A stretch of DNA of 64,000 nt. It comes from Candidatus Aminicenantes bacterium. GTDB lineage: Bacteria > Acidobacteriota > Aminicenantia > Aminicenantales > Aminicenantaceae. Positions 16,012 through 33,460 of this stretch are shown here, piece after piece. The notes under the pieces were generated by a model that saw nothing but the letters and a program-made list of their open reading frames with translations, had not been told where the DNA came from and did not search any database. Made by a program: the position numbers and the translations under genes. The stretch is from contig DRHQ01000083.1 in NCBI GenBank assembly GCA_011049545.1, forward strand, positions 29,766-93,765, given 5' to 3'. The first letter of the stretch is position 1. Each line of letters opens with the position of its first letter.

Positions 16012-16590
16012 ATGATACTCCCCGTTTCATTCTATTCCCGCTCAACGCTTAAAGTCTTGGTTGACCTGATTGGAAAGGTCTTGGTCAGGAAGTCAGAAGA
16101 TGGCTTGACTTCCGGAATTATCGTGGAAGCTGAGGCTTATTCAGGGGAAGATGACCCGGCTTCTTATGCCTTTAGTGGGAGAACGAAAAGAAGTGAAATA
16201 ATGTACGGGCCGCCGGGCAGGGCGTTCGTCCACTTTACCTACGGAATGCATCATATGCTTAATCTGGTAACAGAAAAAAAAGAGTTTCCGGCTGCAATTC
16301 TAATCCGGGCTCTCGAACCTCGTGATGGGATTTCGTTGATGAAGAAAAGGCGCCAGACTGAGGAGCCTTTTAATTTATGCTCAGGACCAGCCAAGATATG
16401 CCAGGCCTTTGCTATAGATCGGTCTCACAACGGTGTCTCGCTTTCCTCTTCAAACTCTCCAATTTTCATTAAAGAGGGAGAGAAAAGGAAAGAAGAGCTA
16501 ATCTGGACGTCAAGGATAGGAGTCAGTGAAGGAAAAGATAGGTTGTGGCGAGCCTATCTAAAGGGGAGTCCTTTCATCTCAGTTAAATAA
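16012..16590 (+). CDS. DNA-3-methyladenine glycosylase (AAG/Mpg family)
   Basis: 192-aa ORF: …IVEAEAYSGEDDPASYAFSGRTKRSEIMYGPPGRAFVHFTYGMHHMLNLV… — segments read here as typical of AAG/Mpg-family glycosylases. Confidence 0.8.
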   Translation: MILPVSFYSRSTLKVLVDLIGKVLVRKSEDGLTSGIIVEAEAYSGEDDPASYAFSGRTKRSEIMYGPPGRAFVHFTYGMHHMLNLVTEKKEFPAAILIRALEPRDGISLMKKRRQTEEPFNLCSGPAKICQAFAIDRSHNGVSLSSSNSPIFIKEGEKRKEELIWTSRIGVSEGKDRLWRAYLKGSPFISVK

Positions 16591-17307: not shown

Positions 17308-17818
17308 TGTTCCTCCTTTTGTTTAGTTTTGCAAAAAGAGCAGAAATATGGACATGTCTGATTTTCCATTCGTCCTCTTCATAATTAAAGACCCATGTCC
17401 AAGCGTCTTTTCCCTCGAATGTATTATCTGATTTATCTTTCATCATATAGCTGTAAAATCCATAAAGAACTGCCACATCAGCCGAGAGTACATCCACTTC
17501 AATCTCACCCATTGTATATTTAAGCTCTACCATATTAGCCATCATCTCATGTGCAATCTTTTTGTGTTCCTCCCAAGAATAATCTATCATGCCATGTTCG
17601 ATGGTTATTGTGTTATCACTGAAATAGCTGAACATTCTATCTAGTTCATTATTGCTTCCCGCCTCGAAGGCTTCTTTGGTGATTTGTTTGATAGTCTCCG
17701 TTATTTCAGCTTTCTGTGATTCATCGAGTGTTACTTTCCTTTGTTGACAGCTGATACTAAAACATAGCAAGAAACAAAGAGAAATTACTAAGGATAATGG
17801 AGTGAGTAGTTTTTTCAT
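17300..17818 (-). CDS. Lipoprotein with NTF2-like/SnoaL-like domain (paralogue of 16798..17307)
   Basis: Start placed at the ATG (MKKLLTPL…) preceded by AAGGAGGG. The ORF-track TTG start at 17863 lacks an RBS. Lipobox FSISCQQ. Confidence 0.5.
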   Translation of the reverse strand: MKKLLTPLSLVISLCFLLCFSISCQQRKVTLDESQKAEITETIKQITKEAFEAGSNNELDRMFSYFSDNTITIEHGMIDYSWEEHKKIAHEMMANMVELKYTMGEIEVDVLSADVAVLYGFYSYMMKDKSDNTFEGKDAWTWVFNYEEDEWKIRHVHISALFAKLNKRRNNE

Positions 17819-19788: not shown

Positions 19789-19867
19789 TAACGGGGCCAA
19801 AAGCCAGGGCAAGAACGGGGACTGTTCCCTTTATCTCGCTTGGAATACACGCTCGTCTTACAAGTTT

Positions 19868-19942
19868 CGGGGAGTAGCGTAGCCTGGTTAGCGCGCCTGC
19901 TTTGGGAGCAGGAGGTCGTCGGTTCGAATCCGATCTCCCCGA
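19868..19942 (+). tRNA. tRNA-Pro (anticodon TGG)
   Basis: Manual fold: acceptor cggggag/ctccccg, D arm, anticodon stem cctgc/gcagg with loop ttTGGga, T arm gtcgg-ttcgaat-ccgat, discriminator A. No encoded CCA. Confidence 0.85.
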
Positions 19943-20011
19943 TTAAAACTTAAGACGGATAAAGGAACAATCGGATATAGAAGCCGATTGAGATAGAAAA
20001 ATATCAAGGAT

Positions 20012-20089
20012 GCGCCTGTAGCTCAGTCAGGATAGAGCAGCTGCCTTCTAAGCAGCGGGTCGGAGGTTCGAGTCCTTCCAGGCGTGCCA
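20012..20089 (+). tRNA. tRNA-Arg (anticodon TCT)
   Basis: Acceptor gcgcctg/caggcgt (G1·U72), anticodon stem gctgc/gcagc with loop ctTCTaa, T arm ggagg-ttcgagt-ccttc, encoded CCA. Confidence 0.8.
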
Positions 20090-20235
20090 CCCTTCCTCCT
20101 TATTTACCAATAGCTTTCCTTGGATTTTGATTTCATAGAGCCTATACTATTTTTAGTTTTTTTGACACAAAAATGTCAAAGGAGTGACAAATTCGACATC
20201 CCACTGTTACACGGGCTGATGTCTGGTTTTTTCTC

Positions 20236-20300
20236 ATTGACTTGAAACTTTTTCTTATGATATAAGTCAAAGAGTCACAGCTTAGGGACATCGTGAGCAA
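20236..20300 (+). promoter_or_regulatory. Repeated promoter + conserved leader module, copy 1 (TTGACt-N17-TGATATAAG-TCAAAGAGTCACAGCTTAGGGA)
   Basis: One of three near-identical modules (with 21192-21247 and 30104-30200), each ~120-150 bp after a tRNA or tRNA fragment and before an ORF. A possible 22-codon GTG-initiated leader ORF lies at 20293-20361. Confidence 0.45.
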
Positions 20301-20381: not shown

Positions 20382-20912
20382 ATGAAGAACAGAATTATCG
20401 TAGGAACAATTCTTTTTGCTTTTCTTCTTTCTGGAACTGTTTTTGCTCAAGAGAAAAAACAGAAAGTTGAAGCACCTCAATTAACAGTAGAGCAGAAATG
20501 GAAACGTGCTATGTCTAATCTGAATGCGATATTCATTGCAAGTATTGCCTATGCCAAATCTCAGGGAAAATCGCCATCACACTATGGTAAGTATATGGGA
20601 GAATTATTTGCGACAAGCTGGGAAGGAGTTAAAGGCGTAACAGATTTCATAGAGGCAATGCATTGGAATTGGCAAATGTGGGAAGATTTCCAGATTGAAG
20701 TCTTGGAAGAGTCTGAGAACTTTTATAAAGCGAAGATTAAAGGGATAGGCGAAAAATACATCACAGAAGGGTCGGAAGCAGGAGTCACATTAAACGAATA
20801 TTATGATTGCTGGGAACAACTTATGATGCCGATAACGAATTATTTAGGTCTGGAATACAAACAAAAAATAGAAGGAGATTGGATAGTATTTACAGTTAAA
20901 GAAAAGAAATAG
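20382..20912 (+). CDS. Hypothetical secreted protein (signal peptide)
   Basis: 176-aa ORF with a good RBS (AAAGGAGG). N-terminal signal MKNRIIVGTILFAFLLSGTVFAQ. No recognisable domain. Confidence 0.5.
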   Translation: MKNRIIVGTILFAFLLSGTVFAQEKKQKVEAPQLTVEQKWKRAMSNLNAIFIASIAYAKSQGKSPSHYGKYMGELFATSWEGVKGVTDFIEAMHWNWQMWEDFQIEVLEESENFYKAKIKGIGEKYITEGSEAGVTLNEYYDCWEQLMMPITNYLGLEYKQKIEGDWIVFTVKEKK

Positions 20913-21022
20913 ACACTCATAGCATACAAATCCAAGCCTTCCTGAGGTTGAGGATGCCAGGAAGAGGCTGGTTCCGTCCAGATCTTCTTATAAGCCCAAA
21001 GAAAAATAGGCTACGAAGGCCG

Positions 21023-21084
21023 AGCGGGTGGCTGTTAACCACTAGGTTGTAGGTTCGAGTCCTACCCGAGGAGCCATCTTTTTA
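21023..21084 (+). repeat. 3' fragment of a tRNA-Asn(GTT)-like gene (anticodon arm + T arm + acceptor 3' + CCA), direct repeat copy 1
   Basis: ggtgg-ctGTTaa-ccact…gtagg-ttcgagt-cctac-ccgagga-g-cca. No matching 5' acceptor or D arm upstream. ~95% identical to 29921-29982. Confidence 0.75.
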
Positions 21085-21191
21085 TGGGGTAAAAAGCTCT
21101 CGACTATTTAAGCAACCTTATCCGTAGTTAGGCAAGTTTAGGCATTTATTGACACACCACTGACACACAGGAATAGGTGTGTTTTTCTTGT

Positions 21192-21247
21192 TTGAATCTA
21201 ATTTTCCATTGTGAAATAAGTCAAAGAGTCACGGCTAGGGGAGCATA
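21192..21247 (+). promoter_or_regulatory. Repeated promoter + leader module, copy 2
   Basis: ttgaat-N16-gtgaaataag-tcaaagagtcacggctagggga, then the ATG of the 21248 ORF. Confidence 0.45.
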
Positions 21248-21691
21248 ATGAACCCAGCAAAGGAAGGAATCATGTTTGCCGCCCTTTACACTAAAAAGTG
21301 TATAAAGGAACAGGCACAAGATGAGCTTCAATATTTTCGTATGTATCCCACTGAAAGAGATGAAAGTGGGCGCACCATGTTGCTACCATTTGCATTCAAA
21401 GAGAGAGACTATTTCAATTGTCCAGAAAGAATGAAAGACGATGAGGTAAAAGTCGTAAAGGAGTATTCACCCCATCATGTATACACTTCTGACCCAAGAG
21501 AGTCATATCTAATTGACGAATGTAAATGGATTCCAACAGCAGACCAACTTAGGAAAGGTCTAGAAAGGATAGGTTATTCTATTGGAGATACTTCATATAT
21601 GAATGAAGAGCAAATACTTGATTTAATAATGAGAGAACGAAAAAAGATGAGGTGGAGTAGAGAAAAAGAAAACTGGGTAAAGGTTTTGTAG
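21248..21691 (+). CDS. Hypothetical protein
   Basis: 147-aa ORF with RBS AGGGGA. No recognisable domain. Confidence 0.5.
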   Translation: MNPAKEGIMFAALYTKKCIKEQAQDELQYFRMYPTERDESGRTMLLPFAFKERDYFNCPERMKDDEVKVVKEYSPHHVYTSDPRESYLIDECKWIPTADQLRKGLERIGYSIGDTSYMNEEQILDLIMRERKKMRWSREKENWVKVL

Positions 21692-21839
21692 AAGAGACTA
21701 TAATATACACCTACAATCGTAAACCCGTCGCTCCAGCGCACAATCTCACGACAAAACGACCTTCCTTGACTTCACGGATACCTGAGCATAAAATCATTTC
21801 GAGATTGTCAGTAATCAAAAGACTTAATGAGAAGGGGAG

Positions 21840-22280
21840 GTGAAAAAAATGGAACAACCCCTTTTAATATTACTTGGAGCATTATTAGCAATAGGAGGAG
21901 GTTTTATTAGCCAACACAACCAAAGCCGTCTTGATCAAAGGAGACAAGATAGAGAGTTTTTCCATCAGGCAGAAGAGATTTTAATTGAGATGCAGCCTTA
22001 TTTGGAAGAGGTCATGACTCCTCCTAGTAAAGAATTACATGAGTTAAGTAAAAAACTTCTTTATGCTGCTATGAGAATCAAAACAAAAGGCTATCTTGAC
22101 TTAGCATTAAAATTAGTTGAATTTGCTAGAATGGATGCCAAAAAGACTAAGGATGAAGCAATTAGTCTCATCCAGGAGGTTGCTGCGACAAGTAAAAGTG
22201 CGCTCGATATGCATCACAGAAAACGAAATGAAATTGTCAAAAAAGCCTGGGAAGAGCTAAAAAAGATTGGAAGGGGATAG
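21840..22280 (+). CDS. Hypothetical protein with N-terminal transmembrane helix
   Basis: 146-aa ORF with RBS GGGGAGG. TM segment LLILLGALLAIGGGFI, then a helical/charged region. Confidence 0.5.
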   Translation: MKKMEQPLLILLGALLAIGGGFISQHNQSRLDQRRQDREFFHQAEEILIEMQPYLEEVMTPPSKELHELSKKLLYAAMRIKTKGYLDLALKLVEFARMDAKKTKDEAISLIQEVAATSKSALDMHHRKRNEIVKKAWEELKKIGRG

Positions 22281-22474
22281 CGAAGAGAAGCATTGATTAA
22301 TACACTCCTAAAATTTAATAAATCTTTTGATCTCGATTTTTACTCCCTGCCTTTCAATACTCCCAATCTCGACTGGCGATCTGTGTCGCACGATGGGTAT
22401 TATGTAAACTTGCTACCTTGTAAAATGACCTTGAGAGCGGGAGAATAGATTATTGAGGGAAAAGGAGGGGGACA

Positions 22475-22620
22475 TGAAAAAACTTTGCATGATTATTCCT
22501 CTGATCCTGGTTCTATGTTTTATCGTCAGCTGTCAAAATCAGGAAGCAATGGCAGAGCTTGAAGAGATGAAGGCCCAGGCAGAGGTTGAGGAGCAGAATA
22601 AGGAAGTAATCGAAATTTAG
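22475..22620 (+). CDS. Possible small lipoprotein (48 aa), not in the ORF track
   Basis: ATG after AAGGAGGGGGA. MKKLCMIIPLILVLCFIVSCQNQ… has signal and lipobox features. Short and unverified. Confidence 0.3.
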
Positions 22621-22626
22621 TAAGAA

Positions 22627-24114
22627 ATGAGCGATATATATAGAAAGTTAGACAAAGTTTTCTTAGAACTAACTCAAGCCCTTTCTATCTATAGTAAATC
22701 AAAATTCTTGCAAGATTATTTTATAACTTCCTACATTTCATTTATATATGCAAATATTATTAAAAATTTTTTTATTAATTTGACAAGAGAGACTATAAAA
22801 AAATTAAATTTACCTAAAAGCCAAATAGGTGAAATCAAAAAAAAATATAAAGAAATACAGAAAGAAATAAATTTAGCAATATCTATTTCATTGAAGGGTA
22901 AAAAAATAGATGAAAAATATTACAGTAAATTTAAATCTAATATTAAAAAAGATTTCCCTGAATTTATAAAAATATTATCTACAGTTGAAAAAGAGATTAA
23001 AATTGCGAGGCTAAAGAAATTTATTAACAAAAAGAAAATAGAGATAAAAAGGGTAGGTCAAGATGAAGCAGATCTTCATAAAGATTTATTAACAAAAGCA
23101 TTAGAAGCGTATATTCAGGAAAAAAAAGAAATTCCGAGTATGATAAAAGTAAAAAACCTTATTAATACTATTGGAAGAGAAATCTTACCAAAATTTTCAG
23201 AAGCTTTAACGGCAGATCTTATTAAGGATAGACACGCGTTTTTATCAGATCAAAGAAAACTCCAAAAGGGATTTGAGACTCGATTATATGAAAGGTGGAA
23301 GGATCCTTTAGACCTCTTTGAATGCTTAATTCAAATTTCTTTAGAATCTGGAGAAAAACGTAAAAAAAAGTTAAATAATAAGAAAAATAATAAAAATAAT
23401 TCTAAATATGACGCGCTAATTAAACTTCATGCCAGAGCCTTACATATTTCTAACGAAATAGCTATTTTGCTGAAATCGGGTTATGCAGATGGTGCAAACG
23501 CCAGATGGAGGAGCCTCCATGAATTAGCTGTTATTTCTTTTTTCCTATGTGAAAATAATAATGATGCTTCAAAAAGATATTTAGAGCATAGCGTTATAAG
23601 AGCACTAAAAGAGGCAAAGGATTATAGAACCTATTATAAAAAATTGGGATATCCTCCTATAAAAAGAAAAGAGCTTCTGATGTTAGAAAAGGAAGCAGAG
23701 AGGCTATGCAAAAAGTATAGTGATAGATTTCAAGATGATTATGGTTGGATTCCCAGCTCCATATTAAAAGAAAGAAATTTTAAAGCTCTAGCACAATCTG
23801 TTAAGCTTGATAAATTACGTCCATACTATAACCTTGCTTGCGATTCTTCCCATGGAGGTTCAAAGGGGTTTTATAGACTTGGTTTAATGGATGATTCTCA
23901 AGACAAAATATTTCTTGTTGGTTCAAGTAATTATGGACTTGCTAGTCCTCTCCAAAATTCTGCTATTTCTTTATTACACGTTTCCTCTTGCTTATTAACT
24001 TTGGAGCCTGACTTTGAAAGCATTATACAAATATATGTGATGGGTAATTTTATGAACGAAATTTGTGATAAAGCAGTTGAAGTTCAAAGTAAGATTGAAA
24101 AGGAAACAGATTAA
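22627..24114 (+). CDS. Large Lys/Ile-rich hypothetical protein with a C-terminal HEPN-like R-x4-H motif (Abi-like candidate)
   Basis: 495-aa ORF in very AT-rich DNA. The C-terminal region has …GANARWRSLHELAV… (R-x4-H) inside a predicted helical domain. No other recognisable motif. Confidence 0.55.
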   Translation: MSDIYRKLDKVFLELTQALSIYSKSKFLQDYFITSYISFIYANIIKNFFINLTRETIKKLNLPKSQIGEIKKKYKEIQKEINLAISISLKGKKIDEKYYSKFKSNIKKDFPEFIKILSTVEKEIKIARLKKFINKKKIEIKRVGQDEADLHKDLLTKALEAYIQEKKEIPSMIKVKNLINTIGREILPKFSEALTADLIKDRHAFLSDQRKLQKGFETRLYERWKDPLDLFECLIQISLESGEKRKKKLNNKKNNKNNSKYDALIKLHARALHISNEIAILLKSGYADGANARWRSLHELAVISFFLCENNNDASKRYLEHSVIRALKEAKDYRTYYKKLGYPPIKRKELLMLEKEAERLCKKYSDRFQDDYGWIPSSILKERNFKALAQSVKLDKLRPYYNLACDSSHGGSKGFYRLGLMDDSQDKIFLVGSSNYGLASPLQNSAISLLHVSSCLLTLEPDFESIIQIYVMGNFMNEICDKAVEVQSKIEKETD

Positions 24115-24192
24115 TAGTAATTCTGCTTCTTTAATAATCATTATGTTAACTCGCTCCGTATGAAATGACCTTTATATATTTTAGGAGTAGAC

Positions 24193-24645
24193 ATGAGCAC
24201 AACTCAATTAATATTTCCTTGGTACCATAGGATAAGACATGTAGATTTAAAGAAAATAAAACACCCTACATCTTTGTTGGATTTTCAAGAATTATCATAT
24301 ACAGAAAGATATGATTCTCGATATTTTAAATATCTTAACTTGTCAAATAAGAAATTGTCTACAAACTGGCTAGACTCGTGGGAATCAATATTTGTAGTCG
24401 GTCCATTTATAGAAAGAAAACAGAAATATAATAAAATTCCGTTCATTGTCTTTATAACAGAGGGAAGCATTTATAGCCAATTGGTGGTTTTAAGCAGAAG
24501 ACTTGAGCTGCCTTATTATGAGTTCGGGATAATGCCAGATTTATATATATATCCTTCTAAGCTTCACAAATATTTCACTATGAAAAAGGATAAGCTTTGG
24601 CTTAGAACTGAAGCCGTTTCTATTAGACTTAAGAAAGGAGGATGA
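24193..24645 (+). CDS. Hypothetical protein, translationally coupled upstream partner of the HEPN-like ORF
   Basis: 150-aa ORF whose stop is 1 nt before the next ATG. No canonical nucleotidyltransferase G[SG]…D.D motif found. Confidence 0.5.
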   Translation: MSTTQLIFPWYHRIRHVDLKKIKHPTSLLDFQELSYTERYDSRYFKYLNLSNKKLSTNWLDSWESIFVVGPFIERKQKYNKIPFIVFITEGSIYSQLVVLSRRLELPYYEFGIMPDLYIYPSKLHKYFTMKKDKLWLRTEAVSIRLKKGG

Positions 24646-24646
24646 A

Positions 24647-25042
24647 ATGCCCAATCCAAACCAGTACAAAAAAATATCAGATAGATATCTAAATGCTTCG
24701 GATTTATTGGTTGATGATGTTCATGAGGCAGCAGGATTTTCTTTATATCATGCCTTTGAATCCATGGGAGCTGCATGGATAAGAACGAATGCTAGAGTTG
24801 TGCCTCATAGACATGAAAGCAAAATTAATATGTTCGTATCTTTAACGAGAGAAACTGGGCACAGAACTGGTATTGGGCTGGTAGGTATTTTATTAAACTC
24901 ATTGAGAAATAAGATGCTTTATCCAATTCCTGAAATTCCGTCAGGTTTTTCGATACCTCACATTAAATTCTCAGTCTCAGAAATAAAAAATTTGAGCCGA
25001 AGGGTAAAAGGTATTTTAAATATAATAAGACCTCTAATCTAA
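24647..25042 (+). CDS. HEPN-domain-like small protein
   Basis: 131-aa ORF. ASDLLVDDVHEAAGFSLYHAFESMGAAWIRTNARVVPHRHESKINMF follows the helical HEPN pattern (…A.DL…A..y.a.E…KA…p..H…L.). Confidence 0.45.
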   Translation: MPNPNQYKKISDRYLNASDLLVDDVHEAAGFSLYHAFESMGAAWIRTNARVVPHRHESKINMFVSLTRETGHRTGIGLVGILLNSLRNKMLYPIPEIPSGFSIPHIKFSVSEIKNLSRRVKGILNIIRPLI

Positions 25043-25059
25043 TTACTCAAGAATATTGT

Positions 25060-25560
25060 ATGGATAAAGATAGATTTCTTCGTGTTTTCAAGGAATCATT
25101 GGAAGTAATAACAGAAAAACGCTTCTTCTCATCTGAGCTAGGTTATCAAGGACAACTTGTATCTGAGCTAAATAAAAGATTAATAATGGAGTTGGTTTTT
25201 TCAAACAGGGCAGTCGTTGAGCAAGAATACCAAAAAAGATTGAAGGACCATGGTATCAGAATAAGGCCGGACATAATTATTCATGTCCCATACTCAGAAG
25301 GAATTCATTCCTCAAGGAAAGAAGATAATTACGTGGTTATCCAGCTAAAAAAGAACTCATCAAAAAAAGATGCTTTAGATGATTTAAAAAAAATTGACTT
25401 ATTATTTCAGAATTTAGATTATCCACTTGGTGTTTTTCTGAATATAGGTTCTGAGAAAAATTTTTATAGTTATTATTTAGGAGAATATAGAGATCGAATT
25501 CATTGTTTTGCAGTTCTATTGTCAGCAGAAGACAAGGTAATCATACACAAATCACCATAA
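25060..25560 (+). CDS. Hypothetical protein, possible PD-(D/E)xK nuclease-like fold
   Basis: 166-aa ORF 17 bp after the HEPN-like gene. Contains …E…RPDIIIH…VVIQLKK…, a weak E/PD/QxK arrangement. Confidence 0.45.
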   Translation: MDKDRFLRVFKESLEVITEKRFFSSELGYQGQLVSELNKRLIMELVFSNRAVVEQEYQKRLKDHGIRIRPDIIIHVPYSEGIHSSRKEDNYVVIQLKKNSSKKDALDDLKKIDLLFQNLDYPLGVFLNIGSEKNFYSYYLGEYRDRIHCFAVLLSAEDKVIIHKSP

Positions 25561-25647
25561 AACTTATTTGTCTAAGAGCTAATACCTCTAATGCTTTGCT
25601 ACCTTCTAAGATAAAGAGCCTAAAATAAAGATGGAAGTTTAGACAAG

Positions 25648-25700
25648 TGGAAGTCAAAAACCCTAAAGCCCTAGCTTCCCCGATTTCTGAAAAAGACAGT
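25648..25700 (+). repeat. Island hairpin motif family P5, copy A (GGAAG[CT]CAAA-N-CCTAAAGCC-YTRGCTTCCC-N-GAT[TT]GAAAAAG)
   Basis: Imperfect inverted repeat GGAAGCCAA/TTGGCTTCC followed by GATTGAAAAAG. Four copies, each 60-130 bp upstream of an ORF (25780, 28174, 31890, 32334). Confidence 0.7.
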
Positions 25701-25779
25701 AGAGCGAATTTAAAGCTAATTTCTCTTTCCCGGGAAGATTGTGCCGCACAATCGATATTATGTAAACTTATAAAAACCT

Positions 25780-26688
25780 ATGTCGAATCATAAAAAACAA
25801 CATTCTGTTCCCAAATGTTATCTCAGGGAATTTATTGACCCAGAAACTCCAGGTGGATATGAGCCTTTTATTTGGATTTTTGATAAAAACGGCAAGAACA
25901 AAAGAAAGAAGGCACCTAAAAATGTATTAACAAGTAACAATCTATACACTATTGAAGTCGAAGGGAAGGCTAGGGATTATTCTATTGAAAAAAGCCTCTC
26001 TTCTATTGAGAACGATTTTGCAATTTTGTTCAGACAGAAAATCAAAAATCTATTGCCATTATCAGAGGAGGAGCACATATCTTTGTGCATTTTTATAGCC
26101 ACTATGCTCCAGAGAACTGTTAGCCAGAAAGCTAATCTAGAACATTTCCTTGATGAGCTAATTTCACATGGCGAAAAATTAGCAGCACATCATGGAATTA
26201 AGTCGAGGACTGTTGAGAGCCTAAAAAACTACAAAAGAGATGCTCATAAACTCAATATTTTGAAGATGTTTCCAGAAGTGACTCAAATTTTATTAAATAT
26301 GAGCTTGGCATTCGTAATAGTGGGGAGAAGCAAATCTCGGTTTATTACCTCCGATGACCCATGCACCCTTTTTAATCCAAAATTAAGAGAGCAACGCCTT
26401 ATGGGTCCAGGATTGGGTCAGAAGGAAGTTGAATTGACTATTCCATTATCTCCTGAGATTGCACTCTGTTTGAGCTGGAGTAATTTTCGGGGATTTATTG
26501 AAATTGGAAAACGACAGATTGAAGAATTAAATAGAACAACGCGAGCCCATTGCTATGAACTCTTTATTTCCTCTAGTTCCCATAAAAAATTTAGATGGTT
26601 TTTAAAATACCCTTTGAGCCTAATTTTTGTCATGAAAGTTATCAGACAGAAGTTTAATTATAGAATTCATAGAAATTTTCACTCATGA
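25780..26688 (+). CDS. DUF4238-like protein
   Basis: 302-aa ORF whose N-terminus (HSVPKCYLREF) fits, to my recollection, the family signature H-x-V/I-P-x-x-YL-R/K-x-F. Preceded by a repeated tattatgtaaactt -10-like element. Confidence 0.55.
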   Translation: MSNHKKQHSVPKCYLREFIDPETPGGYEPFIWIFDKNGKNKRKKAPKNVLTSNNLYTIEVEGKARDYSIEKSLSSIENDFAILFRQKIKNLLPLSEEEHISLCIFIATMLQRTVSQKANLEHFLDELISHGEKLAAHHGIKSRTVESLKNYKRDAHKLNILKMFPEVTQILLNMSLAFVIVGRSKSRFITSDDPCTLFNPKLREQRLMGPGLGQKEVELTIPLSPEIALCLSWSNFRGFIEIGKRQIEELNRTTRAHCYELFISSSSHKKFRWFLKYPLSLIFVMKVIRQKFNYRIHRNFHS

Positions 26689-26697
26689 ATTCAAGTT

Positions 26698-27564
26698 ATG
26701 GCAAAAGAAGATAGATATTCACTCGCGTTATATTTAGCCTCTAAAGGCCAACTGGACAAAGCCTCATTCCTTCTGTGGAAGATAGTTGAGAAAACAAATA
26801 GTGCAGAGTTAATGCTGAACTCCATATTGGCTTTGGTTACTATGTTGGGGCGAAAAGAAAACAACGAAAAAATTATAAATCTATGTGATAAGGGAATTGA
26901 ACTCTCTTATAGACTCAATAATGAGAATGCCAAAGCATTTCTAATGGCGACTAAAGCTCTAAGCATAATAATTGAAGTCGAATTCAATCTACACAAGAAG
27001 AAGAATCTTGTTTTAGCACCGGGGTGGAAGGAATTTGCCTTGGAATCCATAAAGGAGGAGTTCACAGTCCTTACAAGAAAGATTGAGCAAAACCGGAGTG
27101 AATCACAACAATTGATAACTGAATCCTTCAAAGGAATCAGTTCAAGTCAAATTAGTGAAACACTAGCAGACGTTTTAATGATAAAAGGTGAATATCATTT
27201 TGATGAATACCTGAATTACAAAATAGAAAATATCAAAACTACAAAATTTAGACTGTTTCTAAAGAACGTCAGTAACATTGACTCTTTTCTTTATAATCAG
27301 AGTAGCCAAAAAACTACAAAAAGAATTTTAAAGGACTCAAAGAAGTGCATCATTGATGCAGCACAGATTTATAAGAATCTAGGAGATGAAATAAATCAAG
27401 CAAATGCTTATTTAAACTTAGCAAATCAAGCGATTTCGATAAATCGTAAAAAGGAAGCGAGGAAATATCTAAAAAAAGCAATTACTGAAGTTCAAAACAA
27501 TAAAAATTTGGAAATATTGAACAGAATTAGAAATTTGGAAGAACGATTAATGAAACATGATTAG
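26698..27564 (+). CDS. Hypothetical alpha-helical (TPR-like) protein, probably co-transcribed with the DUF4238-like gene
   Basis: 288-aa ORF 9 bp downstream of the previous stop. Repetitive helical hairpin pattern (…AYLNLANQAISINRKKEARKYLKKA…). Confidence 0.5.
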   Translation: MAKEDRYSLALYLASKGQLDKASFLLWKIVEKTNSAELMLNSILALVTMLGRKENNEKIINLCDKGIELSYRLNNENAKAFLMATKALSIIIEVEFNLHKKKNLVLAPGWKEFALESIKEEFTVLTRKIEQNRSESQQLITESFKGISSSQISETLADVLMIKGEYHFDEYLNYKIENIKTTKFRLFLKNVSNIDSFLYNQSSQKTTKRILKDSKKCIIDAAQIYKNLGDEINQANAYLNLANQAISINRKKEARKYLKKAITEVQNNKNLEILNRIRNLEERLMKHD

Positions 27565-28065
27565 TAGTATTGGAAATAGCACTTAGGAATATAACTCCCC
27601 GTTGGGGAATGTCATTTACAATGATTTAAGCGAAATGGAGACTCAACCATTTTGAAGTAGGTCCCCAATAAAGAAGCTTCAGTCCTTCGGTGTTTGGATG
27701 TTCAGATTGAGCTAAACATAGTAAAGAACACAAACTACTATACAAAGGTCACATATTAAAAGAAAAGCAATACTTCAGTTAGATCCATGCCCCATAATCA
27801 TATTCATCCCTGGATACTCCATTCTAATCTTCAGTTCTGAATATCCCTTCAACTTGTGATATAATATCCTCAAAAGTCCTTCATTCGGTTTGAAGGCGGC
27901 CTGAATAAGGCTCACTTCCGGTGAAGCCTTGGTGGCACATTTAAATAGCTGGTCCATTGTCCTCCAGGAACTTCTTACTTAATTCGTTTTTTTTGTACTA
28001 CAATTATGGCATTTTTTCAACATGGGGGATTTCCAAATTCTATACTAAAAAAATTTTAGGTAGAG

Positions 28066-28115
28066 CTTAAGCCAAATACCCTAAAGCCCTGGCTTCCCTA
28101 GATTGAAAAAGATAT
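28066..28115 (+). repeat. Island hairpin motif family P5, copy B
   Basis: aagccaaataccctaaagccctggcttccctagattgaaaaag. Confidence 0.7.
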
Positions 28116-28173
28116 CATTAAGGGTGGAAATTACCCTCAAGAACATAGACTGATTTTATAGGGGGACATTCTC

Positions 28174-29187
28174 GTGTTACTTTTTGATGACGGTTTATTT
28201 TCTCTTGATAGTCCGAAAGAGAGTTTTGCGGATGAAAGCTGGTCTGGAAATCTTTGGTATCGGACTAATGTAATTGCTCCTATAGAATCCCCTAAGGATT
28301 TAAGCTGGCTTTTTGAAATTGAACAAGAAGCAAGAAAGCTAGGTTATCTTGGAGAAGTAAAATCATATTTTGCTTATCAAATTATTATCCATTTAGATGT
28401 CAAAAGAAGAAATAGAATTTGGAGATTAATTCAAGATGTTCCTATTCTTATAATTGACCCAAAATATTATTTAAGAGAATTCGGAATAAAAATTATAAAT
28501 CAATACAGTTATTCATTTGAAATATATGGAGTAAAATTCCAAATAAATCGGTCAGACCAGATGTTTAAAAAATATGAAGAACTTCTTCAAGAATTATTAT
28601 CCCAGAGAGTACTCATTGATTCTCTTTTACCTGATTTAGAAAATGCCATAAGAAATATTTCAGCTCGCTATGATGTGTTTCCAGGCATATATGACTTCGA
28701 ACCGAAAAGAATATTGAAACAATTAAATTTCAAGAAACCAAAAAAGCAAATAATAAATGTTGTCAAACTCTCATCAAGGCTTCATAGCGCTTTTATTGAA
28801 CTGGGTGATAGAGATTCAATAAATTCTGCAATGGACGGATTATCATATTTTAAAATGGATTTACTGTTCCCATTATCTCACTTTTATAGGGATTTATTGA
28901 TTAAATCTATATCAAGAAACTGCTATTTTGATGAAGGTGACACGAAGTCCATTGAATTTATTAGAGGATTAATCAATAAAGTTAAGACTGGTTTAACTCA
29001 TGATATTTTTGGAAAATATTCGGCCATTCCAGAAGCAAAAATTGAAGAAATCAAATCTGAAGAAGATATAAGAATGCGCGCTTCAGATGTAATATCTGGG
29101 ATTGCCAGAATGATTTATGATTCTGAGGGGATAAGAGGTTTAAAGAACAAATTTTCTTATATATTTTTTAATGGTCGCAGAATATAG
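28174..29187 (+). CDS. Hypothetical protein
   Basis: 337-aa ORF with GTG start after AGGGGGAC. AT-rich, no recognisable domain. Confidence 0.5.
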   Translation: MLLFDDGLFSLDSPKESFADESWSGNLWYRTNVIAPIESPKDLSWLFEIEQEARKLGYLGEVKSYFAYQIIIHLDVKRRNRIWRLIQDVPILIIDPKYYLREFGIKIINQYSYSFEIYGVKFQINRSDQMFKKYEELLQELLSQRVLIDSLLPDLENAIRNISARYDVFPGIYDFEPKRILKQLNFKKPKKQIINVVKLSSRLHSAFIELGDRDSINSAMDGLSYFKMDLLFPLSHFYRDLLIKSISRNCYFDEGDTKSIEFIRGLINKVKTGLTHDIFGKYSAIPEAKIEEIKSEEDIRMRASDVISGIARMIYDSEGIRGLKNKFSYIFFNGRRI

Positions 29188-29484
29188 AATAAAGAAAATA
29201 TTTGGAAGGTATACACTTTACCCCAAGTATTTTGTTTGCCTTCTTTCCAGTTAATTGCACTCGTTCACTTTCTCATTCTATGTTTCTCGTTTGGGCAATA
29301 AAGCCAATCCTCAAGCCTTGAACATCAATCCACCCTGTCCCCAGGCGAAGGATTGCGTCGCATATCTATTATTATGTATACTACTATAACTCACATAATA
29401 TCAGTAAGTTGCGATGATTTAGATTTGAAATATTATCCCATTTTGGGCCAAAAAAAGGGGGTAAATTCCCGTTTTTCAAATAGG

Positions 29485-29575
29485 GGTGGCGTCTGACTGC
29501 GAATCAGAAGGTCGTCGGTTCGAATTCGATCTCCCCGATTAAAGCTTAAGACGGATAAAGGAACAATCGGATATA
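29485..29575 (+). repeat. tRNA 3'-fragment direct repeat (copy of tRNA-Pro T arm, acceptor 3' end and 37 bp of downstream flank)
   Basis: 29510-29575 matches 19914-19979 at 64/66 positions (…ggtcgtcggttcgaat[ct]cgatctccccgattaaa[ag]cttaagacggataaaggaacaatcggatata). It is preceded by an unrelated anticodon-arm-like hairpin and has no 5' tRNA half. Confidence 0.8.
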
Positions 29576-29659
29576 AAAATAAGTTCTTCCTGTCTTCTCA
29601 CCTTCAGCCAGATTTAGAGGGGTCTAAATGAATCTGATATTACCAAGCTCTGTAAGCCA

Positions 29660-29860: not shown

Positions 29861-29920
29861 TTATTACCTCCAAAGTTTTGTTGATAATAATACTCTACTA
29901 TCTGGATTCTGAAAAATCAA

Positions 29921-29982
29921 AGCGGGTGGCTGTTAACCACTAGGTTGTAGGTTCGAGTCCTGCCCGAGGAGCCATCTTTTTA
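29921..29982 (+). repeat. 3' fragment of a tRNA-Asn(GTT)-like gene, direct repeat copy 2
   Basis: Same as 21023-21084 with one T-stem substitution (cctgc vs cctac). No 5' half present. Confidence 0.75.
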
Positions 29983-30103
29983 GGGGCCAGAGACAACCTC
30001 TCATTTACTCACCATTAGGCAATAGCGAGCAATTGTAGTCATTTTGTGTCATGCGGACGTCACCGGTCTATCACATGGCAGAAAACAGGTCATTATTACG
30101 TGG

Positions 30104-31802: not shown

Positions 31803-31850
31803 AGGAAGCCAAAGACATTAAAGCCTTGGCTTCCCTGGATTGAAAAAGGA
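31803..31850 (+). repeat. Island hairpin motif family P5, copy C
   Basis: ggaagccaaagacattaaagccttggcttccctggattgaaaaag (best palindrome of the family). Confidence 0.7.
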
Positions 31851-31889
31851 CGCTGATCGAGTTAGAATTCTTATAAGGGAGTAAAAAAT

Positions 31890-33225: not shown

Positions 33226-33409
33226 TTTGTAGCCCTCCACTGGTCGATTTAGGCCCAACAATTACTATACCGCATGCAATAAAATGTGAAAACTGAAGCT
33301 CAAATAACATCTTGAATTAATGAACCCATGCATCATAGCAATGAAAACACAGTAATATTCTATCAATATCCTTGTTATGCTACAAGCCTCATATCTATTA
33401 TTATGTTAA

Positions 33410-33460
33410 CCTGTGATTTCAAAGTTATTGATTATCAAAAAATCAGAAAAATAATGAAAT
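33410..33460 (+). repeat. ~50-bp direct repeat (CCTGTGA[CT]TTCAAAGTTATTGATTATCAA…AATAATGAAA), left copy
   Basis: Matches 35026-35075 at ~85%. The two copies bracket the Zn-ribbon and membrane-protein genes. Confidence 0.7.

What the first reader, a model, noticed from the sequence alone, without database searches (positions are those of the whole stretch)
22627..29187. AT-rich cargo block of uncharacterised genes with defence/TA-like hallmarks (candidate novel defence island)
Seven consecutive same-strand ORFs sit in DNA that is by eye much more AT-rich than the flanks, with Lys/Asn/Ile-rich proteins. They are the 495-aa R-x4-H protein, a coupled 150-aa/131-aa HEPN-like pair, a 166-aa possible PD-(D/E)xK protein, a DUF4238-like protein with a TPR-like partner, and a 337-aa orphan. 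None has housekeeping similarity. The compositional contrast, tRNA adjacency and the HEPN and nuclease-like motifs fit horizontally acquired anti-phage or toxin-antitoxin functions, and the operon arrangement does not match any system I can name.
Basis: inference. Interest (0 to 1): 0.8.

Follow-up and report, generated by a model that had tools for sequence, protein, structure and literature searches.

The report
Mosaic defence-type island beside tRNA genes
A 6.6-kb AT-rich stretch next to two tRNA genes in an uncultured marine-sediment bacterium (Candidatus Aminicenantes) is a horizontally acquired patchwork of at least five independent small gene cassettes of the toxin/anti-phage type, not one new seven-gene system; its most unusual piece is a HEPN protein paired with an uncharacterised partner.

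Summary
Seven same-strand ORFs lie at the stated coordinates in DNA of 32% GC, against 43% elsewhere in the window (z -3 to -5).

The window is from a Ca. Aminicenantes genome (Loki's Castle sediment). In three relatives with 87-93% identical MutL, similarity stops just after tRNA-Arg and none of the seven genes is present. The block is also bracketed by tRNA-fragment direct repeats. It is therefore a variable, acquired hotspot. The closest relative carries AbiEi/AbiEii at the same site.

It is not one system. The genes travel separately:
- O1 is a DUF5677 protein, a solitary accessory gene on plasmids and in an E. coli prophage.
- O4 belongs to a widespread, unannotated family with a PD-(D/E)xK motif, found alone in defence-rich neighbourhoods.
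- O5+O6 are DUF4238 (a validated anti-T7 gene family) with a lineage-specific TPR-like partner.
- O7 remains an orphan.

A defence or toxin-antitoxin function is inferred, not shown. Interest is moderate.

The parts
19867..20089 (+). Intact tRNA-Pro(TGG) and tRNA-Arg(TCT). They mark the conserved left edge of the variable hotspot.
   Evidence: ARAGORN and Rfam at 66-67 bits. DNA similarity to relatives L013-L015 ends at about 20120-20190.
20382..22620 (+). Four small unannotated ORFs: 176 aa with a signal peptide, 147 aa, 146 aa with an N-terminal TM segment, and a 48-aa lipoprotein-like ORF at 22474-22620. GC is intermediate (0.385). They belong to the variable region and are absent from relatives.
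21009..21088 (+). Partial tRNA with a GTT anticodon loop, lacking the 5' acceptor strand. It is a 97%-identical direct repeat of 29921-29986 and a candidate att-type boundary.
   Evidence: the repeat finder family D1, sequence and a partial Rfam tRNA match at 29.5 bits. ARAGORN does not call it.
22627..24114 (+). O1, 495 aa. The C-terminal part is a DUF5677 domain with the invariant motif G-x-AD-x-A-x-ARWR-x-L-(H/Y)-E (R293...H298). The N-terminal ~150 aa are a unique Lys/Ile-rich extension encoded by 19-23% GC DNA.
   Evidence: Pfam PF18928 at E 2e-29 and phrog_27456 at E 3.5e-54. Stand-alone homologues of about 330 aa occur on plasmids and in an E. coli lambdoid prophage. Alignment A7.
24193..24645 (+). 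O2, 150 aa. It is the obligate upstream partner of the HEPN gene and has no family, PDB or nucleotidyltransferase-motif match.
   Evidence: It is always adjacent to O3 relatives. A 29%-identical homologue (E 2e-25) sits before a 43%-identical O3 relative. There are no Pfam, PADLOC, PHROG or PDB hits and no G[SGA]...[DE]x[DE] motif. One natural O2-O3 fusion exists, P0286.
24647..25042 (+). O3, 131 aa. It is a divergent HEPN-fold protein of the UPF0332/PF05168 class. Family-invariant residues are H35, E38, R87 and Y92, giving R-N-x3-Y where catalytic HEPNs have R-x4-H.
25060..25560 (+). O4, 166 aa. It belongs to a widespread family with no Pfam model that carries the motif set E26...E56-Y-x-K59...R69-P-D71...(E/Q)95-L-K97, i.e. 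a PD-(D/E)xK nuclease-type motif. O4 itself has Q95.
   Evidence: More than 142 homologues in bacteria and archaea. Alignment A1. No conserved neighbour. Neighbours are rich in TIR, caspase, Schlafen, HerA, ResIII and GmrSD domains. The PD-Lambda-3_A hit is weak and partial.
25780..26688 (+). O5, 302 aa, a DUF4238 protein.
   Evidence: Pfam PF14022 at E 2e-37, 129.6 bits. PADLOC DUF4238-Pers at E 3e-11. A family member was validated against T7 (PMC9122126).
26698..27564 (+). O6, 288 aa. It is a TPR-like helical-repeat partner of O5, starting 9 nt after it, and is restricted to this lineage.
   Evidence: TPR hits are sub-threshold only. Only 7 relatives exist at 71-100% identity. In three other contexts it always follows a DUF4238 gene directly. 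The cassette spans 25757/25776 to 27565/27591 at the DNA level.
28174..29187 (+). O7, 337 aa, GTG start, an orphan in its own transcription unit after a 609-nt gap.
   Evidence: No hit in Pfam, PADLOC, NCBIfam or PHROGs, plasmids, phages, viral contigs (50) or PDB. Only cluster mates at 90% identity or more are known.
25649..25693 (+). Copy of a ~45-nt conserved intergenic element (core GGAAGCCA-N15-TGGCTTCC, then CTGGATTGAAAAAG), upstream of O5. A second copy lies at 28067-28111 upstream of O7, and a weaker one at about 31812-31856 upstream of DsrE.
   Evidence: alignment A8. It also occurs upstream of other cargo genes in L013, L007/L008 and L101.
29483..29578 (+). Partial copy of the tRNA-Pro 3' half plus about 40 nt of its downstream spacer. 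It is 88% identical to 19893-19982 and has a different anticodon loop. It is a remnant att-type repeat at the right side of the block.
   Evidence: the repeat finder family D2, sequence, a partial Rfam tRNA match, and a match to the tRNA-Pro region of relatives.
29908..29986 (+). Second copy of the partial GTT-loop tRNA, 97% identical to 21023-21088.

Best explanation
The block is the cargo of a variable, horizontally acquired hotspot downstream of mutL, tRNA-Pro and tRNA-Arg in a Ca. Aminicenantes chromosome. tRNA-targeted insertions left partial tRNA copies at the borders, and the integrase has since been lost. The cargo is a mosaic of at least five independently mobile cassettes of the defence or toxin-antitoxin type, not a single system.

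1. O1 is a solitary DUF5677 protein of the kind carried as an accessory gene by plasmids and prophages.
2. O2-O3 is a two-gene module. O3 is a small HEPN-fold effector of the UPF0332/PF05168 class, most likely an RNA- or nucleotide-binding toxin-like protein. Its obligate, translationally coupled upstream partner O2 controls it, probably by direct binding and not by the AMPylation that MNT antitoxins use.
3. O4 is a solitary small nuclease-type protein with a PD-(D/E)xK motif.
4. O5-O6 is a DUF4238 defence-family protein with a lineage-specific TPR-like partner that plausibly acts as sensor or regulator.
5. O7 is an orphan.

Shown: the acquisition, the hotspot, the mosaicism, the pairings, the HEPN fold, and the DUF4238 and DUF5677 domains. 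Inferred: the anti-phage or toxin function, which protein is toxin and which regulator, and every biochemical activity.
For: Composition: GC is 0.323 against 0.429, with 1-kb windows at z -3.1 to -4.8.

Hotspot: relatives with 87-93% identical MutL share DNA only up to about 20120-20190 and lack every island gene. At the same site L013 carries AbiEi_2 + AbiEii, while L015 carries an esterase and MacB/FtsX.

Boundaries: tRNA-fragment direct repeats of 97% over 66 nt and 88% over 90 nt.

Modularity:
- O2-O3 occur with the same 1-nt spacing in at least five different neighbourhoods, with or without O4.
- DNA similarity to those contigs starts 20-24 nt before O2 and ends 10 nt after O3.
- O2-type and O3-type genes co-diverge, at 29% and 43% identity.
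- O4 relatives in 80 loci have no conserved neighbour; 215 of 251 neighbour clusters are singletons. Their neighbours include TIR, caspase, Schlafen, HerA, ResIII, GmrSD and integrase domains.
- O6 relatives always follow a DUF4238 gene. Three DUF4238 genes inspected on annotated plasmids have no TPR partner.
- DUF5677 homologues are solitary genes near AbiEii and HigBA, and sit in a lambdoid prophage moron position. The gene is present in 73 of 5426 E. coli genomes.

O3 as HEPN.

DUF4238 defence activity: PMC9122126.
Against: There is no experimental evidence for any gene here.
- No integrase or recombinase lies between 20100 and 30275.
- Six of the seven window proteins fail to give a convincing PADLOC hit. 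Only O5 does, and O4's hit is weak and partial.
- The one DUF5677 ORF tested for defence in another study was not among the protective ones (bioRxiv 10.1101/2025.10.07.681051).
- O3 lacks the catalytic His of R-x4-6-H, having an invariant Tyr instead, so RNase activity is uncertain.
- O2 and O3 are both basic (pI 9.7 and 10.1), which is unlike the usual acidic antitoxin with basic toxin.
- The O4 neighbour census has no background control.
- L015 shows that the hotspot can also carry ordinary genes.
- O7 was not searched against the large protein database.
Confidence: 0.6

Rival explanations
1. The seven genes form one co-operating multi-gene defence system or operon of a new type. This is the reading implied by 'the operon arrangement does not match any system I can name'.
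For: All seven genes are on the same strand and share the same low GC. Several intergenic gaps are short: 78, 1, 17 and 9 nt. The identical arrangement appears on five metagenome contigs, but these carry identical proteins and so represent the same strain.
Against: - Relatives of O2-O3 occur without O1, O5, O6 and O7, and sometimes without O4.
- O5-O6 relatives occur without the others.
- O4 relatives in 80 loci co-occur with O2-O3 only in the window's own lineage, and with a DUF4238 gene once.
- DUF5677 genes elsewhere are solitary.
- Gaps of 219 and 609 nt carrying a repeated upstream element separate at least three transcription units.
Confidence: 0.04
2. The cassettes are addiction or toxin-antitoxin and selfish modules that merely stabilise themselves or a decayed integrative element. 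They have no role against phages.
For: - The HEPN-plus-partner architecture is classic for toxin-antitoxin modules (established knowledge of HEPN-MNT/HepT-MntA; fold match).
- The island lies between att-like tRNA remnants with no integrase, which suggests a degraded mobile element.
- DUF4238 and DUF5677 genes are frequent on plasmids beside partition, replication and TA genes.
- Neither the O3 nor the O4 family was detected on viral contigs.
Against: - A DUF4238 protein gave strong T7 resistance as a single gene (PMC9122126).
- The same hotspot in the closest relative holds AbiE.
- O4-family neighbourhoods are rich in bona fide defence domains.
- TA and abortive-infection roles are not mutually exclusive.
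Confidence: 0.25
3. The block is AT-rich junk: decaying or non-functional ORFans with no current function.
For: O7 has no known relatives beyond 90% identity. The O3 relative in L010-L012 is truncated to 102 aa. There is no integrase. Synonymous and non-synonymous codon differences between close O2 and O3 variants are similar in number (13 syn/13 non for O2 and 8/20 for O3 against L006).
Against: - Long intact ORFs of 131-495 codons in 32% GC DNA are very unlikely by chance.
- The O3 family (129 clusters) and the O4 family (over 142 members) keep invariant motif residues across deep divergence.
- O2 retains 29% identity with conserved motifs and its coupled position in a distant pair.
- O5 and O6 are conserved as a pair at 83% and 71-80% identity.
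Confidence: 0.08

Closest known systems
HEPN-MNT (HepT-MntA, type VII) toxin-antitoxin modules, e.g. Shewanella SO_3166/SO_3165 and the UPF0332/PF05168 HEPN proteins AF0298, TT1696 and ST0689
   Different: The upstream partner O2 is not a recognisable MNT. It has no Pfam or PDB hit and no G-S...D-x-D nucleotidyltransferase motif, and the same holds for three further partners of the family. The His of R-x4-6-H is replaced by an invariant Tyr, and H35 and E38 are additional invariant residues. Both proteins are basic.
AbiV (Lactococcus HEPN RNase with an RNA antitoxin, a type III-like abortive infection system)
   Same: Both are HEPN effectors in a two-component arrangement. 24 of 101 O3-family members hit Pfam HEPN_AbiV and 7 of 101 hit the PADLOC AbiV model. 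AbiV structures appear among the fold hits.
Single-gene DUF4238 defence from the P2 prophage hotspot (Rousset et al. 2022; PADLOC 'DUF4238-Pers')
   Same: O5 has a full-length PF14022 domain (129.6 bits) and hits the PADLOC model at E 3e-11. Like the validated gene, it sits in a variable accessory hotspot.
   Different: The validated system is one gene, and three DUF4238 genes inspected on annotated plasmids have no TPR partner. In this lineage O5 is always followed within 9-36 nt by a 288-aa TPR-like protein. Identity to plasmid DUF4238 proteins is only 23-29%, and the PADLOC match covers only residues 161-271.
tRNA-adjacent genomic or defence islands, and prophage or satellite defence hotspots
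   Same: The shared features are low GC, a location just downstream of tRNA genes, direct repeats derived from tRNA 3' parts, different cargo in close relatives (including AbiE in L013), and small unrelated defence or TA-type cassettes side by side.
   Different: No integrase, recombinase or other mobility gene remains. The two repeat pairs are interleaved and not nested. Cassettes in this lineage are often preceded by a conserved ~45-nt element of unknown role.
PD-lambda-3 (E. coli abortive-infection system) and small stand-alone PD-(D/E)xK proteins such as the HsdR N-terminal-type domain
   Same: O4 has a weak hit to PD-Lambda-3_A at E 7.6e-6. The family has a conserved E...PD...(E/Q)xK motif. 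UniRef's automatic name is 'Type I restriction enzyme R protein N-terminal domain-containing protein'.
   Different: The PADLOC hit covers only 52 residues and is seen in 6 of 43 family members. No Pfam model matches at E <= 1, and no PDB sequence matches. O4 has Gln at the position of the motif's acidic residue. The family has no conserved partner.

Membership tests
HEPN superfamily (O3) | Compact four-to-five-helix up-down bundle fold | tested here: met
HEPN superfamily (O3) | Sequence-profile membership (Pfam PF05168 or a related HEPN model) | tested here: inconclusive
   The window's O3 has no Pfam hit at E <= 1. However, 62 of 101 members of its HMMER-defined family hit PF05168 (best E 4.8e-14) and 24 hit HEPN_AbiV. 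The family profile hits PDB HEPN entries at E 6.8e-5. Membership is therefore transitive.
HEPN superfamily (O3) | Catalytic R-x4-6-H motif | tested here: not met
   The family has invariant R87 and Y92 (LRNxxLYP), i.e. R-x4-Y and no His. The same R-N-x3-Y pattern is seen in the aligned solved HEPN protein 9xbd. O3 is thus a HEPN-fold member, but RNase chemistry cannot be assumed.
HEPN-MNT / HepT-MntA type VII toxin-antitoxin (O2-O3) | Cognate partner is a minimal nucleotidyltransferase with a G-S...D-x-D motif | tested here: not met
   O2 and three further partners of the family have no Pfam, PADLOC or PDB match and no G[SGA]x7-16[DE]x[DE] motif.
HEPN-MNT / HepT-MntA type VII toxin-antitoxin (O2-O3) | Conserved two-gene operon with the partner upstream, tightly coupled to the HEPN gene | tested here: met
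   The pair has 1-nt spacing in the window. The same pairing occurs in L006-L012, L104 and L105-L107 (a 14-nt overlap), and analogous 141-aa partners occur in L109-L112.
HEPN-MNT / HepT-MntA type VII toxin-antitoxin (O2-O3) | Toxicity of the HEPN protein, neutralised by AMPylation of a Tyr | not testable with these tools
   This needs expression and toxicity assays plus mass spectrometry. An invariant Tyr (Y92) exists next to R87, but no transferase is evident.
DUF4238 anti-phage defence (O5) | Full-length PF14022 domain above the gathering threshold | tested here: met
   E 2e-37, 129.6 bits against a cut-off of 27, covering residues 6-267 of 302. The PADLOC DUF4238-Pers hit is E 3.3e-11 and partial.
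DUF4238 anti-phage defence (O5) | Single-gene system | tested here: not met
   O5 and its 83-85% identical relatives are always followed at 9-36 nt by the TPR-like O6 family. The validated system is a single protein (PMC9122126).
DUF4238 anti-phage defence (O5) | Protection against phage | not testable with these tools
   This needs heterologous expression and phage challenge.
PD-(D/E)xK nuclease superfamily (O4) | Conserved E...(P)D...(D/E)xK motif | tested here: inconclusive
   Across the family, E26, R69-P70-D71 and L96-K97 are invariant or nearly so, and the consensus is ELK. O4 and its closest relatives have Q95-L-K97, so the motif's second acidic residue is replaced. The fold was not predicted, and no Pfam or PDB match was found.
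PD-Lambda-3 system (O4 as PD-Lambda-3_A) | Full-length match to the PADLOC model, together with the system's other gene | tested here: not met
   The match covers only residues 82-133 (profile positions 98-149 of 159) at E 7.6e-6 and occurs in 6 of 43 family members. No PD-Lambda-3 partner hit was found among the neighbours.
DUF5677 (O1), with the proposed HEPN relationship | PF18928 domain, and homology to HEPN through the R-x4-H motif | tested here: inconclusive
   The PF18928 domain is met: 103.2 bits against a cut-off of 27.1. The motif ARWRxL(H/Y)E is conserved in four sequences. hhalign against the O3 HEPN family gives probability 0.2%, and there is no HEPN Pfam or PDB hit. The alignment is shallow (Neff 2), so the test has low power.
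tRNA-associated genomic island | Deviant composition, flanking direct repeats derived from a tRNA, and absence from close relatives | tested here: met
   GC; repeats; absence in L013-L015.
tRNA-associated genomic island | Integrase or recombinase gene at one end | tested here: not met
   No integrase-like ORF or Pfam hit was found among the ORFs between 20100 and 30275. Intergenic DNA was not searched for integrase pseudogenes.

The most novel reading that the evidence does not exclude
O2-O3 may represent an undescribed, fairly widespread class of HEPN two-component modules (about 129 clusters at 50% identity). In this class a UPF0332-like HEPN protein with an invariant H35/E38/R87/Y92 constellation (R-x4-Y and no R-x4-H) would be governed by a fast-evolving protein partner of 141-154 aa that is not a nucleotidyltransferase. 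That would be a new toxin-antitoxin or abortive-infection type with a neutralisation mechanism different from MNT AMPylation and from AbiV's RNA antitoxin.

A second possibility is that the ~45-nt GGAAGCCA-N15-TGGCTTCC element preceding many cargo cassettes in these Aminicenantes genomes is a cassette-associated regulatory or recombination site.
Probability: 0.3. Interest if true: 0.55.

Novelty: new variant of a known kind. Interest (0 to 1): 0.4.

Why it matters
Aminicenantes (OP8) are abundant, uncultured sediment bacteria whose mobile elements and immunity are almost unknown. This locus shows that they have tRNA-adjacent variable hotspots that exchange small defence or TA-type cassettes, as in model bacteria.

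It also yields four concrete, clonable candidates:
1. A HEPN protein with a partner that is not an MNT.
2. A DUF4238 gene with a dedicated TPR-like partner, which could help reveal how DUF4238, whose mechanism is unknown, senses infection.
3. A widespread PD-(D/E)xK-type family with no Pfam model that keeps company with TIR, caspase and Schlafen genes.
4. A DUF5677 variant with an N-terminal extension.

None of this overturns current understanding. The value lies in new family definitions and testable variants, not in a new principle.

Tried and rejected
1. One seven-gene system. Rejected by the context analysis.
2. O1 as a HEPN protein. No support from Pfam, PDB or hhalign. It remains untested structurally.
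3. O2 as an MNT antitoxin. No family, PDB or motif support.
4. O4 as a member of PD-Lambda-3. The match is partial and weak.
5. O7 as DUF3800, an idea from its termini. BLASTP against a Shinella DUF3800 protein gives E 47, and there is no Pfam hit.
6. The 338-aa gene in L101 as an O7 relative. tblastn found no match.
7. Phage origin. O1, O2, O6 and O7 as single proteins, and the O3 and O4 profiles, found nothing in IMG/VR. That method needs exact peptide words. Only DUF5677 has phage or prophage relatives: phrog_27456, Bacillus phage SPR and an E. coli prophage.
8. Known RNAs in the island. Rfam found only the tRNAs and tRNA fragments.
9. The first AF2 run for O3, with 9 close sequences, failed (pLDDT 45). 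It succeeded only after the exhaustive HMMER search deepened the alignment.
10. The A5 profile was too diverse for the search for related loci.
11. The promoter scan was uninformative: 35 sites found against 37.8 expected.
12. The ~45-nt element as an RNA hairpin. There is no clean covariation in eight copies.
13. An integron-like reading was considered. There is no IntI, and the repeat lies upstream of the genes. attC structure was not formally tested.

Full report
OBSERVATION

They are called identically on independent metagenome assemblies of the same locus. The block 22627-29187 has 0.323 GC against 0.429 for the rest of the window and is the lowest-GC stretch of its length. Its 1-kb windows lie 3.1-4.8 sd below the others. 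Third-codon-position GC is 0.21-0.33 against 0.44, and Lys+Asn+Ile is 0.21-0.31 against 0.19 in 20 other genes. tRNA-Pro and tRNA-Arg lie 2.5 kb upstream.

ORIGIN AND SETTING

The proteins are deposited as hypothetical proteins LCGC14_04474xx-04475xx of the Loki's Castle marine-sediment metagenome and as 'Candidatus Aminicenantes bacterium'. The flanks are housekeeping genes: purD, a radical-SAM enzyme, methylpurine glycosylase and MutL upstream, and a HAD-like protein, DsrE and a NYN protein downstream.

A scan of species-representative genomes with MutL found three MAGs with 87-93% identical MutL, two labelled Ca. Aminicenantes. All three keep mutL, tRNA-Pro and tRNA-Arg. DNA similarity to the window stops at about 20120-20190, immediately after tRNA-Arg, and none of the island genes is present downstream. 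At this site the closest relative carries unknown genes plus an AbiEi_2/AbiEii pair. Another relative carries an esterase and a MacB/FtsX transporter.

- 29489-29578 repeats the 3' half of tRNA-Pro plus about 40 nt of its spacer (88% identity).
- 21023-21088 and 29921-29986 are 97%-identical copies of a tRNA with a GTT anticodon loop that lacks its 5' acceptor strand.
- Rfam scores all three as partial tRNAs.

No integrase is present. I read this as the scar of tRNA-targeted insertions whose mobility genes were lost. This is an inference.

THE BLOCK IS A MOSAIC, NOT A SYSTEM

O2-O3. The word-indexed search found only 8 relatives of O3. In their contigs a 150-aa gene precedes the O3 relative with the same 1-nt spacing wherever the upstream DNA is present, but the surroundings differ. 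One contig has an Xre/ParS-type HTH and an AAA protein, another has glycosyltransferases, and the 166-aa O4 gene is present in some and absent in others. At the DNA level similarity starts 20-24 nt before O2 and ends 10 nt after O3, or at the end of O4.

O4. This gene belongs to a large family of more than 142 members in bacteria and archaea, none with a Pfam domain. In 80 metagenome loci it has no conserved neighbour: 215 of 251 neighbour clusters are singletons. It co-occurs with O2-O3 only in the window's own lineage.

O6. It has only 7 relatives (71-100% identity), and each of the three looked up directly follows a DUF4238 gene in an otherwise different context. The shared DNA runs from about 25757-25776 to 27565-27591. 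Three DUF4238 genes inspected on annotated plasmids have no such partner.

O1. Residues 150-490 match stand-alone DUF5677 proteins of about 330 aa on plasmids of bacteria and haloarchaea, next to HigBA, AbiEii, IS elements and reverse transcriptases. They also match a gene in a lambdoid prophage of E. coli 55989, lying between the replication genes and hokD/rem/rusA/Q. That gene is present in 73 of 5426 complete E. coli genomes.

The island therefore holds at least five independent units: [O1], [O2-O3], [O4], [O5-O6] and [O7].

WHAT THE PROTEINS ARE

O3 is thus a HEPN-fold protein of the UPF0332/PF05168 class. Its invariant residues are H35, E38, R87 and Y92. The motif is R-N-x3-Y, not R-x4-6-H, so RNase activity cannot be assumed.

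O2. It has no match anywhere. A 29%-identical homologue (E 2e-25) overlaps the start of a 43%-identical O3 relative. A truncated ORF before a 56%-identical relative ends with the same WLRTEAVSI sequence. More distant HEPN relatives (31-33% identity) have coupled 141-aa partners that BLASTP cannot link to O2. None of these partners has a G-S...D-x-D nucleotidyltransferase motif or a PDB match. One metagenomic variant is an in-frame O2-O3 fusion. This is a single observation and could be an artefact.

O4. The family alignment shows invariant E26, E56, Y57, K59, H64, R69-P70-D71, H75 and N90, and near-invariant L96-K97, with consensus ELK. This is a PD-(D/E)xK signature. O4 and its closest relatives have Q95 in place of the motif's acidic residue. 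The PADLOC PD-Lambda-3_A hit is short and occurs in only 6 of 43 members. PD-lambda-3 is an abortive-infection system (PMC13190303). Neighbours of the family include TIR_2, caspase, trypsin-like, Schlafen/AlbA_2, HerA, ResIII, GmrSD, DUF4238 and integrase domains. This is suggestive of defence islands, but the census has no background control.

O5. It is a full-length DUF4238 protein. A DUF4238 protein from the P2 hotspot gives strong T7 resistance as a single gene, by an unknown mechanism (PMC9122126).

O6. It shows only sub-threshold TPR matches.

O1. It is DUF5677 with an invariant ARWRxL(H/Y)E motif. A link to HEPN was not detected. DUF5677 was enriched near defence-associated serine recombinases, but the tested ORF was not among those reported as protective.

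O7. It has no match in any library searched, and a DUF3800 idea was rejected. It was not searched against the large protein database because the caps had been reached.

MECHANISM (INFERRED)

The most likely reading is an accessory island of defence or toxin-antitoxin cassettes. For O2-O3 I propose a HEPN effector held in check by its co-translated partner through direct binding. This is analogous in logic to HepT-MntA, but without AMPylation chemistry, and unlike AbiV, whose antitoxin is an RNA. For O5-O6 I propose a DUF4238 effector with a TPR-type sensor or regulator. O4 would be a solitary nuclease-type effector. These functional assignments carry perhaps 50-60% confidence. The structural and genomic statements are much firmer.

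COMPARISON AND NOVELTY

Defence islands at tRNA-adjacent hotspots are a known kind. The components here are variants of known kinds: HEPN with a non-MNT protein partner and R-x4-Y, and DUF4238 with a dedicated TPR partner. There are also unannotated families (O4, O2) and an orphan (O7). Nothing here requires a new principle. Interest is moderate (0.4). The most novel reading not excluded is that O2-O3 defines a new HEPN two-component type (probability about 0.3).

Noticed in passing
window 25649-25693, 28067-28111, ~31812-31856; L013 ~16330-16376 and 17545-17591; L007 7364-7407 and 2098-2148; L101 1487-1529: A conserved ~45-nt intergenic element lies 100-230 nt upstream of unrelated cargo genes (O5, O7, DsrE, AbiEi, O2 and others) in several Aminicenantes-related contigs. 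Its core is GGAAGCCAAAGACCCTAAAGCCCTGGCTTCC, an 8-bp inverted repeat around a 15-nt loop, followed by CTGGATTGAAAAAG. In the 64-kb window it occurs only inside the variable region. The stem shows no clean covariation. Its role is unknown: operator, promoter element or recombination site.
   Followed up: partly
window 22382-22411, 25740-25769, 29354-29383 (weaker 33399-33412): A second repeated motif, TGTGyCGCAC...TATTATGTAAACTT, contains a small palindrome. It lies upstream of the O1 unit, 10 nt before the O5 start codon, and after O7 just before the tRNA-Pro remnant. A related copy is in L013 at 17663-17707. The window has four matches against 0.65 expected by chance.
   Followed up: partly
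window 21009-21088 and 29908-29986; 29483-29578: Three partial tRNA copies are present. Two are 97% identical, have a GTT anticodon loop and lack the 5' acceptor strand. The third copies the 3' half of tRNA-Pro plus its spacer but has a different anticodon loop (CTGCGAA). The two repeat pairs are interleaved (A..B..A'..B'), not nested. No intact tRNA with a GTT anticodon is in the window.
   Followed up: partly
P0286 (one Logan contig of 1920 nt): This is a 282-aa natural in-frame fusion of the O2 and O3 homologues (…RLKKADE-MPNPTQYKK…). It is either a real Rosetta-stone fusion or a sequencing or assembly error at the 1-nt junction.
   Followed up: no
window 22627-23200 (O1 residues 1-~190): The N-terminal extension of O1 is encoded by DNA of only 19-23% GC, the most extreme composition in the window. 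It is Lys/Ile/Glu-rich and absent from the ~330-aa DUF5677 proteins of E. coli and Caulobacter. The Spirosoma homologue has a different N-terminal extension.
   Followed up: partly
L013 18003-19869: The closest relative (MutL 93% identical, and mislabelled 'uncultured Eubacteriales') carries an overlapping AbiEi_2/AbiEii pair in the same tRNA-Arg hotspot. It lies downstream of copies of the ~45-nt element.
   Followed up: partly
window 20228-20288 and 21182-21242: A 61-nt direct repeat (72% identical, ending AAGTCAAAGAGTCACrGCT.AGGGGA) lies just upstream of two small unannotated ORFs, 20382-20912 (a signal-peptide protein) and 21248-21691. These ORFs are also absent from relatives, so the variable region starts right after tRNA-Arg, not at 22627.
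   Followed up: no
window 27775-27957 (- strand) and 27723-27922: A 60-aa minus-strand ORF with no family hit lies in the 609-nt gap between O6 and O7. Part of this stretch is 74% identical to DNA downstream of the O6 relative in L102, so it may belong to the O5-O6 cassette or be a conserved non-coding tail.
   Followed up: no
L111 2295-4758 and L112 2603-5072: A distant HEPN-plus-141-aa-partner pair of the O3 family sits directly downstream of a phage-type tyrosine integrase. It is next to two large unannotated genes of 701 and 559 aa, which is further evidence that the module rides on mobile elements.
   Followed up: no
L071 1096-2513: In one of the 80 O4-family loci the O4 homologue is immediately followed by a DUF4238 gene (Pfam E 5e-35), the same adjacency as O4-O5 in the window. 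It is a single recurrence and could be chance within defence-rich regions.
   Followed up: partly
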